Assembly (NCBI GenBank): GCA_934748015.1
Contig: CAKVHF010000005.1
Span: 21,707 to 85,706 of the forward strand
Direction: 5' to 3'
DNA length: 64,000 nucleotides
Source of the DNA: an uncultured Clostridia bacterium
Lineage (GTDB): Bacteria; Bacillota; Clostridia; Christensenellales; UBA1242
The position numbers were made by a program, and so were the translations under genes. The notes under the pieces are model-generated. The model ran no database searches. It saw only the letters and a list, made by a program, of their open reading frames with translations, and had not been told where the DNA came from. Positions 21,350 through 21,883 of this stretch are shown piece after piece; within the stretch, counting starts at the first letter, position 1, and each line of letters starts with the position of its first letter.

Positions 21350-21883
21350 CTATTCAATAATCTCGCCAGTCTCGGTGTCTACCTCAACCTTCTGTCCCAC
21401 AACCATGTCACTATCTACCTTAACATTTAGTCCAGTCTCTAGCACTGCGTTGCGATAACCATTGACTGTTGTGTCGTCAATCTCAACAATGGTTAGATCC
21501 ACTGTCTGAGGCAAAGTAATCTTAAGTAACTTGTCCTTAGCAAAAGTCATTGTTACAACTGCGTCTTCCGAAATATATTGCATATAGTCTTTAACAAGTT
21601 TGCTGGTAAGTGGCAATTGGTCATACTCATTAACATCAATGAAGTAGTATAGATCACCATCTTGGTACGAGAATTGCATCTTCTTATCTACAATCTCAAA
21701 CTCTTCCACTTCTTCATTCATTGCAAATTTCTTGTCAATAATATCGCCTGTCTCTAGATCTTCTAGACTAGTAACATACTCACTATTCAACATTGAGTCG
21801 CCAACCATTTCACAATTCTGCACACGATATAGATGTCCATCGTACTCAAACGTGTCACCCACCTTAACATTAGTAATTGTCAT
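21350..21883 (-). CDS. divergent EF-P paralogue lacking the modified-lysine loop
   Basis: 177 aa. The N-terminal region aligns to the window's efp without gaps (GHLYRVQNCEMVGDSMLNSEYVTSLEDLETGD against [32 protein letters not shown]). Middle (YQDGDLYYFIDVNEYDQ) and C-terminal (AVLETGLNVKV...VEVDTETGE) EF-P signatures are retained. Confidence 0.75.
   Translation of the reverse strand: MTITNVKVGDTFEYDGHLYRVQNCEMVGDSMLNSEYVTSLEDLETGDIIDKKFAMNEEVEEFEIVDKKMQFSYQDGDLYYFIDVNEYDQLPLTSKLVKDYMQYISEDAVVTMTFAKDKLLKITLPQTVDLTIVEIDDTTVNGYRNAVLETGLNVKVDSDMVVGQKVEVDTETGEIIE

What the first reader, a model, noticed from the sequence alone, without database searches (positions are those of the whole stretch)
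21350..21883. Second, divergent EF-P-fold protein that has lost the modified-lysine loop, encoded beside efp and ynbB
Seen: the first ~60 residues of this 177-aa ORF align gaplessly with the window's EF-P, and the rest is clearly homologous across all three domains. The tip loop that reaches the peptidyl-transferase centre is replaced: VKPGKGSAF becomes VGDSMLNSE, so Lys32 becomes Met. By my count the protein has 38 Asp/Glu against 14 Lys/Arg. It has its own promoter-like sequence (TTGCAT-N18-TACAAT with TGn) and a GGAGA SD, so it does not look like a decaying pseudogene. Established: every characterised EF-P/EfpL/eIF5A acts through a conserved, usually modified Lys or Arg at this loop tip. 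Inference: an EF-P-shaped protein without that residue cannot work the canonical way. It could be an E-site-binding competitor or regulator, a decoy for the modification enzymes next door, or a factor with a new activity. I am not aware of a described lysine-less EF-P paralogue class.
Basis: partly seen in the sequence, partly recalled or inferred. Interest (0 to 1): 0.7.

Follow-up and report, generated by a model that had tools for sequence, protein, structure and literature searches.

The report
Loop-less, acidic EF-P paralogue family
Next to the normal translation factor EF-P, this gut bacterium keeps a second, selected copy of the same fold that has lost every tip EF-P uses to touch the ribosome's RNA, so it probably has a different, still unknown job.

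Summary
Window 21350-21883 (-) encodes a 177-aa protein with all three EF-P Pfam domains. It is 30% identical to the neighbouring EF-P, with Met where Lys32 should be. It has 38 Asp/Glu against 14 Lys/Arg, and its own promoter-like site, SD and terminator.

It is not an orphan. Eight protein clusters, among roughly 15 billion sequences searched, form a monophyletic family at 34-45% identity to it. In this family the Lys/Arg loop is deleted or unconstrained, and the domain III G-x-T loop and the C-terminal Arg are gone. Domain I has turned acidic and is the least conserved domain; domain II is the best conserved.

The genes are intact, with dN/dS of about 0.06-0.17, and fold confidently as EF-P (pLDDT 94). 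So this is neither a decaying duplicate nor a canonical EF-P or EfpL.

The family does not group with the adjacent efp. Linkage to ynbB-efp holds in three lineages but not in all.

My best reading, held at moderate-to-low confidence, is a non-catalytic EF-P derivative acting through the conserved uL1-facing domain II. That could mean modulating E-site or L1-stalk access. A decoy for the modification enzymes is disfavoured.

It is a new variant of a known kind, and it is rare. Function needs experiment.

The parts
21350..21883 (-). CDS of the loop-less, acidic EF-P paralogue (177 aa). Domain I is about residues 1-62, domain II 63-126 and domain III 127-177.
   Evidence: ORF. Pfam EFP_N/EFP/EFP_C. 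BLASTP to EF-P, E 1e-24. AF2 pLDDT 94.1 and Foldseek top hits all EF-P.
21934..21963 (-). Promoter-like site TTGCAT-N18-(TGT)TACAAT, an extended -10 type.
   Evidence: Read from the sequence. Not called by the consensus scanner. The same TTGnnn-17/18-TGnTAnAnT layout lies upstream of the orthologues in L002, L006, L088, L089, L091 and L093.
21898..21903 (-). Shine-Dalgarno-like AGGAGA, 14 nt upstream of the ATG.
   Evidence: SD-like purine runs are present before all orthologues.
21293..21343 (.). Hairpin (21306-21343) flanked by A and T runs. It is a terminator-like element shared by the convergent ynbB and paralogue genes.
   Evidence: RNA fold -15 kcal/mol, z -3.2, followed by UUUUUUGUUUUUU. 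The scanner missed it because the loop is 10 nt. Hairpin plus T-run follows the orthologues too.
19960..21249 (+). Context: ynbB-type PLP enzyme (PF06838), convergent with the paralogue. The true start is probably the ATG at 19999 (MYYGYD...).
   Evidence: Pfam 537 bits. Same arrangement in L001, L002-5 and L006-7.
19236..19793 (-). Context: canonical Lys-type EF-P ([10 protein letters not shown]; 185 aa).
   Evidence: TIGR00038 237 bits, above the 185.8 cut-off. Pfam, all three domains.
18436..19218 (-). Context: SDR/FabG-like reductase directly downstream of efp, a possible YmfI counterpart.
   Evidence: adh_short 177 bits. NCBIfam YmfI model scores 160 bits, below its 238 cut-off, and generic FabG models score higher, so this is inconclusive.

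Best explanation
The gene encodes a maintained, expressed, non-catalytic derivative of EF-P.

Shown:
- It keeps the three-domain, tRNA-shaped EF-P body.
- It belongs to a small monophyletic family under purifying selection.
- That family has lost or freed from constraint every element EF-P uses to touch RNA in the ribosome: the beta3-beta4 Lys/Arg loop that reaches the CCA end, the basic face of domain I, the G-x-T loop of domain III near the E-site codon, and the invariant C-terminal Arg.
- It has kept, and best conserves, the acidic OB domain II.

Inferred:
- In EF-P, domain II is the part clamped in the basic pocket of ribosomal protein uL1, and uL1 is essential for EF-P binding. I therefore think the paralogue most likely still docks on the uL1 stalk or the entrance of the E site through domain II, without inserting a tip into the peptidyl-transferase centre.
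- It would then act by occupancy. It could limit or time the access of EF-P (or of deacylated tRNA) to the E site, or sequester or escort uL1. It would not accelerate peptide-bond formation.

The identity part of this statement I hold at about 0.9. The uL1/E-site occupancy mechanism I hold at about 0.35-0.4, and that is the confidence given below.
For: Fold and homology:
-.
- AF2 pLDDT 94.1 for the window protein and 93.6 for P0162, where the loop collapses to a 3-residue turn.
- Foldseek's 19 best hits are all EF-P or EfpL, with E from 1e-17 to 2e-11.

Family:
- The exhaustive phmmer search and the profile search give 8 clusters at 195-256 bits, against 163 bits or less for everything else.
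- NJ bootstrap for monophyly is 98-100%.

Selection:
- P0014 against P0161: dN 0.059, dS 0.95.
- P0016 against frameshift-corrected P0051: omega 0.17.
- Between the same genome pairs, dN is 0.46-0.63 for the paralogue against 0.10-0.12 for efp and 0.15-0.17 for ynbB.
- Within the species, haplotypes differ by dS up to 0.14 with identical protein.

Inverted constraint:
- Family identity by domain is I 25%, II 54.5%, III 40%. Canonical Firmicutes EF-P shows 57%, 45%, 53%.
- In the same three genomes the paralogue shows 21/57/32% and EF-P shows 89/78/83%.

Lost determinants:
- K34, the G of GDT, P137, F159 and R186 are invariant in 15-16 of 16 controls and lost in the family.

Charge:
- Domain I net charge is -5 to -11 against about +1 in controls. 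Domain II is unchanged at -4 to -7.

Expression signals:
- Promoter-like site, SD and terminator are conserved across lineages.

Literature:
- Acidic domain II sits in the basic uL1 pocket, and uL1 is essential for EF-P binding. The modification and the GDT motif contribute to retention (PMC11514478).
Against: - No binding, expression or phenotype data exist.
- The same literature says EF-P is not recruited when both the beta-lysyl group and the cognate D-loop contact are missing, and that GDT-to-Ala mutants bind poorly. So a protein lacking these and carrying an acidic domain I may not bind ribosomes at all.
- Most family-conserved residues are the structural core shared with EF-P. Only M101, D107, I109, M112 and D117 are family-specific. 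High domain II conservation could therefore reflect folding constraints rather than a uL1 interface.
- I could not superpose the model on a ribosome complex or model a complex with uL1.
- One lineage (L093-95) carries a frameshift, so the gene is dispensable in at least some backgrounds.
Confidence: 0.38

Rival explanations
1. It is an off-ribosome mimic. The protein is now tRNA-like in charge as well as shape, and it binds a tRNA-binding or EF-P-binding protein (for example a synthetase, a tRNA-modifying or editing enzyme, or free uL1 as an assembly or autoregulation partner). It acts as an inhibitor, adaptor or chaperone away from the translating ribosome.
For: - Extreme acidity: net -13 to -24, pI 4.1-4.5, with the shift concentrated in domain I, which in EF-P lies against the tRNA acceptor arm.
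- All RNA-contacting tips are lost.
- Neighbours in some genomes are RNA-directed enzymes: an RlmD-like m5U methyltransferase upstream in the window and a YbaK-like tRNA deacylase in L002.
Against: - The upstream neighbours are not conserved. They are DUF3419 genes in L006, L091 and L093.
- The least conserved part is the newly acidic domain I, which would be odd for a specific new interface.
- No new conserved motif or pocket appears.
Confidence: 0.2
2. It is a decoy or regulatory subunit for the EF-P modification enzymes encoded next door (YnbB, and the SDR that may be YmfI). It would tune the modification state of the real EF-P.
For: - Convergent linkage to ynbB-efp-SDR is conserved in three lineages whose paralogues are only 36-45% identical.
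- In L093 the loss of ynbB-efp-SDR from the locus coincides with a frameshift in the paralogue.
- Partial modification states of EF-P are known to be harmful in B. subtilis (PMC13602936).
Against: - The acceptor loop is deleted, and domain I is the least conserved and charge-inverted part. From general knowledge of EpmA, EarP and DHS complexes, domain I is the part modification enzymes recognise.
- The P0014/P0161 genes are not next to ynbB (His_Phos_1 follows), and nor, as far as the short contig shows, is P0016. Yet they are intact, and the P0014/P0161 pair shows the strongest purifying selection.
- The SDR does not reach the YmfI cut-off.
- The synteny may simply be inherited gene order.
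Confidence: 0.08
3. It is still a weak EF-P-like anti-stalling factor, comparable to EfpL. It would stabilise the P-site tRNA body without reaching the peptidyl-transferase centre.
For: - It has the full three-domain EF-P shape.
- An acidic residue aligns with E. coli Asp69, the tRNA D-loop contact, in 4 of 7 members.
- It always sits in genomes where a canonical EF-P was seen, as EfpL does, in the three loci long enough to tell.
Against: - Substituting the tip Arg in EfpL (R33K) abolishes its function (PMC11611912).
- Here the whole loop is gone, together with GDT and R186, and domain I is acidic.
- Asp69 is not conserved even in the canonical Firmicutes EF-Ps compared, so that match carries little weight.
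Confidence: 0.07
4. It is a slowly decaying duplicate with no function of its own.
For: - It evolves 4-5 times faster than efp in the same genomes.
- Loops are variable in sequence and length.
- One lineage is frameshifted.
- Distribution is very narrow.
- The SD spacing is long.
Against: - dN/dS is 0.06-0.17.
- There are 20 synonymous against 1 non-synonymous polymorphisms, although most of these sequences were retrieved by exact protein match, which biases the count.
- ORFs are intact in seven lineages at 34-45% identity.
- Promoter-like, SD and terminator elements are conserved.
- AF2 confidence is high for two divergent members.
Confidence: 0.07

Closest known systems
Canonical Lys-type EF-P of Firmicutes (5-aminopentanol type; B. 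subtilis EF-P with YnbB, GsaB, YmfI)
   Same: - Same three-domain fold, with all three Pfam domains.
- Domain II motif KxMQ[FY]xYxDGxLYYFMDxETYxQ and domain III LETG...VP...G[DE]K are shared.
- It is encoded in the same cluster as such an EF-P and a ynbB-type gene.
   Different: - No Lys/Arg tip. The loop is deleted in most members.
- Domain I is acidic and unconstrained.
- The G-x-T loop is shortened by about 5 residues, and the C-terminal Arg is lost.
- It scores 129 bits against a 185.8 cut-off on TIGR00038.
- It does not group with the local EF-P in NJ trees (0-0.5% of bootstraps).
EfpL / YeiP (PDB 8S8U), the only EF-P paralogue treated in the 2024-2026 literature I read
   Same: It is a second EF-P-fold protein that co-occurs with a canonical EF-P. 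It is about 24% identical in structural alignment.
   Different: - EfpL has an extended loop with an essential, strictly conserved Arg33 and rescues proline stalls (PMC11611912). This family has no loop or tip.
- It scores 69.8-78 bits against cut-offs of 216-264 on the EfpL models.
- EfpL is found in Gammaproteobacteria, the PVC group, Acidobacteria and Thermodesulfobacteria, not in low-GC Firmicutes.
EF-Ps with A, M, N or Q at the loop tip (4.1% of EF-Ps in Volkwein et al. 2019, PMC6544042)
   Same: They are natural EF-P homologues without Lys or Arg at the tip. The window protein, read alone, would be scored as an 'M-type'.
   Different: As far as that survey describes, those are counted within the normal seven-residue loop. 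Here the Met is not conserved, the loop is usually deleted, and two further ribosome-contact elements are lost.
RPR-loop EF-P subgroup (HV[SNC][RQ]PRLAA), plus QQPRM and KQARQ variants of uncultured Clostridia and termite-gut bacteria
   Same: - These are the nearest sequences outside the family: 40.7% identity against 30.8% for the local EF-P.
- They group with the family in 76-80% of NJ bootstraps on full-length columns.
   Different: - They keep a full-length loop with Arg at the tip, GDT and the Y...R tail, and they sit in housekeeping contexts.
- The grouping drops to about 10% on domains II+III alone, so the relationship is unresolved.
Non-catalytic paralogues of translation components (for example HisZ, a HisRS paralogue acting as a regulatory subunit). 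This is an analogy from general knowledge only.
   Same: A translation-machinery fold is kept under selection after the catalytic or functional tip is lost.
   Different: No partner or regulated process is known here. The analogy was not tested.

Membership tests
EF-P (bacterial elongation factor P, TIGR00038 / PF08207+PF01132+PF09285) | Three-domain KOW + OB + OB fold | tested here: met
   All three Pfam domains are above gathering score. AF2 pLDDT 94.1 and pTM 0.79. Foldseek best hits are EF-P structures, E 1e-17 and TM up to 0.78. In other family members EFP_N is detected in only 3 of 7.
EF-P (bacterial elongation factor P, TIGR00038 / PF08207+PF01132+PF09285) | Reaches the curated equivalog score | tested here: not met
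   TIGR00038 129 bits against a 185.8 cut-off. NF001810 126.8 against 161. The neighbouring EF-P scores 237 and 235.
EF-P (bacterial elongation factor P, TIGR00038 / PF08207+PF01132+PF09285) | Seven-residue beta3-beta4 loop with Lys or Arg at its tip | tested here: not met
   Met31 is in the window protein. The loop is shortened by about 5 residues in the 6 other members aligned, and the aligned residue is M/R/K/A/S/V/F. The P0162 model shows a 3-residue turn.
EF-P (bacterial elongation factor P, TIGR00038 / PF08207+PF01132+PF09285) | Domain III loop with the G-D/N-T motif near the E-site codon | tested here: not met
   G is invariant in 15 of 16 controls and absent in 7 of 7 family members. 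The loop is shortened and variable. The motif's role is taken from PMC11514478.
EF-P (bacterial elongation factor P, TIGR00038 / PF08207+PF01132+PF09285) | C-terminal G-x-Y-x-x-R | tested here: not met
   Arg is present in 16 of 16 controls and 0 of 7 family members. The Tyr is replaced by Phe in 5 and Ile in 1.
EF-P (bacterial elongation factor P, TIGR00038 / PF08207+PF01132+PF09285) | Relieves polyproline stalling on the ribosome | not testable with these tools
   Needs reporter or in vitro translation assays.
EfpL / YeiP | Equivalog score, and an extended loop with conserved Pro and Arg33 | tested here: not met
   NF003392 78 bits against 216. TIGR02178 69.8 against 264. There is no extended loop and no Arg. 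Features are taken from PMC11611912.
a/eIF5A | Two-domain protein with a hypusinated Lys loop | tested here: not met
   No IF-5A model hit for the paralogue. Foldseek matches to IF5A cover only about 125-140 columns, at E 4e-6 or weaker. It has three domains and no Lys loop.
Loop-less acidic EF-P paralogue family (defined here: window protein, P0001, P0013, P0014, P0161, P0016, P0018, P0162, P0051) | Monophyly with a score gap to all other EF-Ps. Degenerate beta3-beta4 loop, short domain III loop, no C-terminal Arg, acidic domain I. Signature MQFSY...YYF[MI]D and [YF]IxEDx[IV]VxM. | tested here: met
   195-256 bits against 163 or less. Bootstrap 98-100%. Features. The DNA motif hits all 16 family loci and none of the 80 canonical loci.
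YnbB/GsaB/YmfI 5-aminopentanol EF-P modification cluster (context) | ynbB-type PLP enzyme (PF06838) next to efp | tested here: met
   PF06838 537 bits. The linkage is conserved in L001, L002-5 and L006-7. That B. subtilis YnbB belongs to PF06838 is from my own knowledge.
YnbB/GsaB/YmfI 5-aminopentanol EF-P modification cluster (context) | YmfI reductase | tested here: inconclusive
   The SDR downstream of efp scores 160 bits on NF047420 (cut-off 238) and higher on generic FabG models.
YnbB/GsaB/YmfI 5-aminopentanol EF-P modification cluster (context) | GsaB, and actual modification of EF-P Lys32 | not tested
   gsaB was not searched for. The modification itself needs mass spectrometry.
Anti-phage defence proteins (PADLOC) | Match to any defence-system model | tested here: not met
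   No hit for three family members at E up to 0.01.

The most novel reading that the evidence does not exclude
This is the first example of an EF-P-derived 'pseudo-factor'. It would be a tRNA-shaped, tip-less protein kept by selection to regulate translation by occupancy of the uL1 stalk or E site, or by titrating a tRNA- or EF-P-binding partner. That would show the EF-P scaffold has a biological use independent of the Lys/Arg tip.
Probability: 0.3. Interest if true: 0.7.

Novelty: new variant of a known kind. Interest (0 to 1): 0.5.

Why it matters
Current understanding of EF-P, EfpL and eIF5A centres on one loop tip that reaches the peptidyl-transferase centre. Here a lineage has deleted that tip and two further ribosome-contact elements, yet keeps the protein under purifying selection with its own expression signals. 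That suggests the EF-P body, most likely its uL1-facing domain II, can do something useful by itself.

If the protein binds the L1 stalk or E site, it would be a natural competitor or regulator of EF-P, and a tool to separate EF-P binding from catalysis. If it binds something else, it is a case of a translation factor recruited to a new job.

The practical weight is limited. The family is rare (8 clusters among about 15 billion proteins) and is known only from uncultured low-GC gut bacteria.

For annotation, such proteins should not be named 'elongation factor P' on domain hits alone.

Tried and rejected
**Searches that led nowhere**
- Two scans of GTDB genomes for relatives. The first found nothing. 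So I have no named organism for any family member.
- My first metagenome scan used a mistyped pattern, with 74 N instead of 72, and was wasted. The corrected motif scan of JGI metagenomes found 21 EF-P variants but no family member.
- Taxonomy. Cluster look-ups gave no names. The host is only known to be a 36% GC organism with WhiA, MurB, UvrC and a YnbB-type enzyme, on a scaffold of at least 1.08 Mb. Sample labels suggest animal-gut metagenomes, but that is an inference from labels only.
- Blaha 2009 and the Hummels & Kearns review are not held. One review query timed out. So residue-level uL1 contacts could not be mapped.

**Ideas tested and dropped**
- Recent tandem duplication of the adjacent efp: rejected. 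The family never groups with the local EF-P (0-0.5% of bootstraps).
- Descent from the RPR-loop EF-P group. Support is 76-80% on all columns but about 10% on domains II+III, so it is unresolved and may be long-branch attraction.
- Asp69 (tRNA D-loop contact) as evidence of retained tRNA binding: dropped, because the canonical Firmicutes EF-Ps compared do not have Asp there either.
- Defence-system membership: no PADLOC hit.

**Unusable comparison**
- The flank diversity figures are invalid, because indels shift the register. Only the in-gene counts are used.
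Full report
**1. The observation**

Window 21350-21883 (minus strand) is an intact 177-codon ORF. 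Its product aligns with the window's own EF-P (19236-19793, minus) at 30% identity, E 1e-24. The alignment is gapless through domains I and II, with a single 5-residue gap in domain III. All three EF-P Pfam domains pass their gathering scores: KOW-like N domain 29.1 bits, OB domain 52.8, C-terminal domain 28.1. It stays far below the curated equivalog cut-offs for EF-P (129 against 185.8 bits) and for EfpL/YeiP (70-78 against 216-264).

[10 protein letters not shown] of EF-P lies opposite MVGDSMLNSE, so Lys32 is replaced by Met31.

On the coding strand there is TTGCAT (21963-21958), 18 nt, then TGT-TACAAT (21939-21934). AGGAGA follows at 21903-21898, 14 nt before the ATG. The generic scanner does not report the promoter, because the -35 hexamer matches only 3 of 6 positions. 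Downstream, a hairpin at 21306-21343 (-15 kcal/mol, z -3.2) with flanking A and T runs lies between this gene and the convergent ynbB-type gene.

**2. It is a member of a small, distinct family**

An exhaustive phmmer search of 1.84 billion representatives returned a 99% identical sequence and then a handful of 170-185-aa proteins at 37-40% identity, ahead of thousands of ordinary EF-Ps. A profile search of the 5.8-billion-cluster collection separated the group cleanly. P0016, P0014, P0001, P0161, P0018, P0162 and the partial P0051 score 195-256 bits. Everything else scores 163 or less.

The family is monophyletic in 98-100% of neighbour-joining bootstraps. A family-specific DNA motif hits all 16 family loci and none of 80 canonical EF-P loci. 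The same motif found no family member in the JGI metagenome collection.

The family is therefore real but rare. The exact window protein, however, recurs in 54 blocks of the assembly collection.

**3. What the family has lost and kept**

In six of the seven members aligned, the beta3-beta4 loop is about 5 residues shorter. The residue aligned with the tip is M, R, K, A, S, V or F. So the window protein's full-length Met loop is the exception, not a conserved feature.

The domain III loop that carries G-D/N-T in EF-P is shortened and variable. The invariant C-terminal Arg is absent in all seven, and the Tyr before it is mostly Phe. Further residues invariant in 15-16 of 16 control EF-Ps are also lost: the Ala after the tip, the Gly of 'TG', the Phe of 'TF', the Pro of 'EPG' and the Phe of 'PLF'.

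Charge changes are concentrated in domain I. It is -5 to -11 in the family against about +1 in 10 control EF-Ps. Domain II is unchanged at -4 to -7.

The pattern of constraint is inverted:

| Comparison | Domain I | Domain II | Domain III |
|---|---|---|---|
| Family, mean pairwise identity | 25% | 54.5% | 40% |
| Canonical Firmicutes EF-Ps | 57% | 45% | 53% |
| Paralogue, same three genomes | 21% | 57% | 32% |
| EF-P, same three genomes | 89% | 78% | 83% |

Pfam detects the N domain in only 3 of 7 members. Most family-conserved residues are shared with EF-P. Only M101, D107, I109, M112 and D117, all in domain II, are family-specific. No new motif suggestive of an enzyme appears.

**4. It is maintained, not decaying**

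AlphaFold2 gives confident EF-P-like models for the window protein (pLDDT 94.1, pTM 0.79) and for the loop-deleted P0162 (pLDDT 93.6). In P0162 the beta3-beta4 connection is a 3-residue turn. Foldseek's best PDB matches are EF-P structures, followed by EfpL and IF5A.

dN/dS results:
- The one unsaturated pair (P0014/P0161, 89.5% identical) gives 0.06-0.08.
- P0016 against frameshift-corrected P0051 gives 0.17.
- Saturated pairs give 0.15-0.37.
- The paralogue evolves 4-5 times faster in protein sequence than efp or ynbB between the same genomes: dN 0.46-0.63 against 0.10-0.17.

Within the species, haplotypes differing at up to 14 synonymous sites (dS 0.14) encode the identical protein. Across seven haplotypes there are 20 synonymous and 1 non-synonymous segregating sites. 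The caveat is that five of these were retrieved by exact protein match.

Every orthologue examined has a TTGnnn-17/18-TGnTAnAnT promoter-like site, an SD-like run and a hairpin plus T-run terminator, although the surrounding sequence has diverged.

One lineage (L093-L095, P0051) is an exception. A 1-nt deletion splits the gene after ...ELTV, and the ynbB-efp-SDR block is missing between the paralogue and the phosphodiesterase gene. The three assemblies may derive from one sample.

It is thus literally met, but the rest of the evidence shows the gene as a whole is under selection. It is the loops that are no longer constrained.

**5. Context and origin**

In the window, in L001, in L002-L005 (P0018) and in L006-L007 (P0162) the order is the same:

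paralogue, then a convergent ynbB-type PLP enzyme (PF06838, 537 bits), then Lys-type efp, an SDR, a phosphodiesterase, an LPG-synthase-like membrane protein, and a second SDR.

The SDR after efp is a candidate YmfI but does not reach that model's cut-off (160 against 238 bits).

The upstream neighbour varies. It is an RlmD-like methyltransferase in the window, a YbaK-like deacylase in L002, and DUF3419 genes in L006, L091 and L093. In the P0014/P0161 lineage a histidine phosphatase follows the gene rather than ynbB. The P0016 contig shows a different plus-strand gene downstream.

Linkage to the EF-P module is therefore probably ancestral gene order. It is not required for retention.

The family never groups with the local EF-P (0.5% of bootstraps or less). 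Its nearest relatives are an abundant, apparently uncharacterised EF-P subgroup with an HV[SNC][RQ]PRLAA loop, plus QQPRM and KQARQ variants. That grouping has 76-80% support on all columns but only about 10% on domains II+III. The origin is unresolved, and a recent tandem duplication is excluded.

**6. How it most likely works**

Established knowledge from papers read here:
- Acidic domain II is clamped in the basic pocket of uL1, and uL1 is essential for EF-P binding.
- The GDT motif lies near the E-site codon, and its mutation impairs binding.
- Without both the beta-lysyl group and the cognate D-loop there is no recruitment (PMC11514478).
- Substituting the tip Arg of EfpL (R33K) abolishes its activity (PMC11611912).

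A protein without tip, GDT or C-terminal Arg, and with an acidic domain I, cannot be a canonical anti-stalling factor.

What selection preserves is the body, above all domain II. I therefore favour a non-catalytic role exerted through domain II's usual partner, the uL1 stalk at the E-site entrance. The effect would be by occupancy or titration rather than catalysis. I put this at about 0.38.

The same data weaken it. Canonical binding determinants are missing, and domain II conservation may be structural.

Rivals:
- An off-ribosome tRNA/EF-P mimic binding another protein (0.2).
- A decoy or regulator of YnbB/YmfI (0.08). This is disfavoured because domain I is unconstrained and the gene persists away from ynbB.
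- Residual EF-P-like activity (0.07).
- A decaying duplicate (0.07).

The remaining probability is for something not considered.

**7. Comparison with what is known, and novelty**

It has the EF-P fold but fails four sequence-defined features of EF-P, and it fails those of EfpL (see the membership table). Surveys already record EF-Ps with A/M/N/Q at the tip, 4.1% of the total (PMC6544042). Two-copy genomes usually differ at the tip residue (PMC11388002). The 2024-2026 papers I could read treat only EfpL as a paralogue and describe no loop-deleted form.

I rate it a new variant of a known kind: a degenerate, selected EF-P paralogue family. Interest is moderate (0.5). It is a real curiosity for the EF-P field and a natural separation of the scaffold from the tip. 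But it is rare, confined to uncultured organisms, and has no functional data.

Noticed in passing
P0012, P0163, P0287-P0380; L099:9943-10497; L117:5001-5555; L119:6001-6558: A large EF-P subgroup has the loop HV[S/N/C][R/Q]PRLAA[L/F] (Pro-Arg at the tip) in place of HVKPGKGAAF. It has at least 120 clusters, some named simply 'elongation factor P' from Clostridiales or Christensenellales MAGs. The genes sit in housekeeping contexts, after rpsU or near pheST. I did not find this subtype described in the papers I read. Whether it is the sole EF-P of its hosts is unknown.
   Followed up: partly
P0017, P0317 (L117:5001-5555): These are mosaic EF-Ps. Domains I-II are 54-58% identical to the RPR-loop type and only 25-29% to the window clade's Lys-type EF-P. 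Domain III is 71-79% identical to the window clade's EF-P and 45-55% to the RPR type. This suggests recombination between two efp types that once shared a genome.
   Followed up: partly
L093:2328-2860 (also L094, L095): The orthologue is split by a 1-nt deletion after ...ELTV (around 2706). The ynbB-efp-SDR block is absent between it and the phosphodiesterase gene. This is a lineage that may have lost the whole EF-P module at this locus. The three assemblies may come from one sample.
   Followed up: partly
L097, L100, L101, L108, L109 (JGI termite-gut-like records Ga0099364, Ga0123353, Ga0131853): Further EF-P variants carry QQPRM[AV]AF or KQARQAGF loops, an unusual 'ETCD' in domain II, and a 2-residue insertion ('NNDANE/NTEANE').
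   Followed up: no
window 21884-21933 and the equivalent 5' leaders in L006, L088, L089, L091, L093: The 45-80-nt leaders between the promoter-like site and the SD share a short GC-containing palindrome followed by T/A runs (for example cgttcgattttt, cgattttcg, atcggttttt). This may be a small 5' stem-loop. It was not analysed.
   Followed up: no
L002:7132-7602: A YbaK/ProX-type tRNA deacylase domain gene (PF04073; weak match to Cys-tRNA(Pro) deacylase, 53 bits against a 153 cut-off) sits directly upstream of the paralogue in the P0018 lineage only.
   Followed up: partly
window 19960-21249 (+): The mechanical ORF for the ynbB-type gene starts at a TTG (429 aa). Orthologues and gene calls (416-423 aa) suggest the ATG at 19999 (MYYGYDIDDK...).
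   Followed up: partly
window 60033-60121 (-) and 55180-55253 (-): A SAM-I riboswitch (62.9 bits) and a tRNA gene are the only Rfam matches in the window.
   Followed up: no
window 16977-18116 (-), and the loci L001, L002, L006: Downstream of efp-SDR lies a conserved run: type I phosphodiesterase, an LPG_synthase_TM protein and a second SDR. DUF3419 (BtaA-like) genes lie upstream in some genomes. It looks like a lipid-modification cluster that happens to flank the EF-P module.
   Followed up: no
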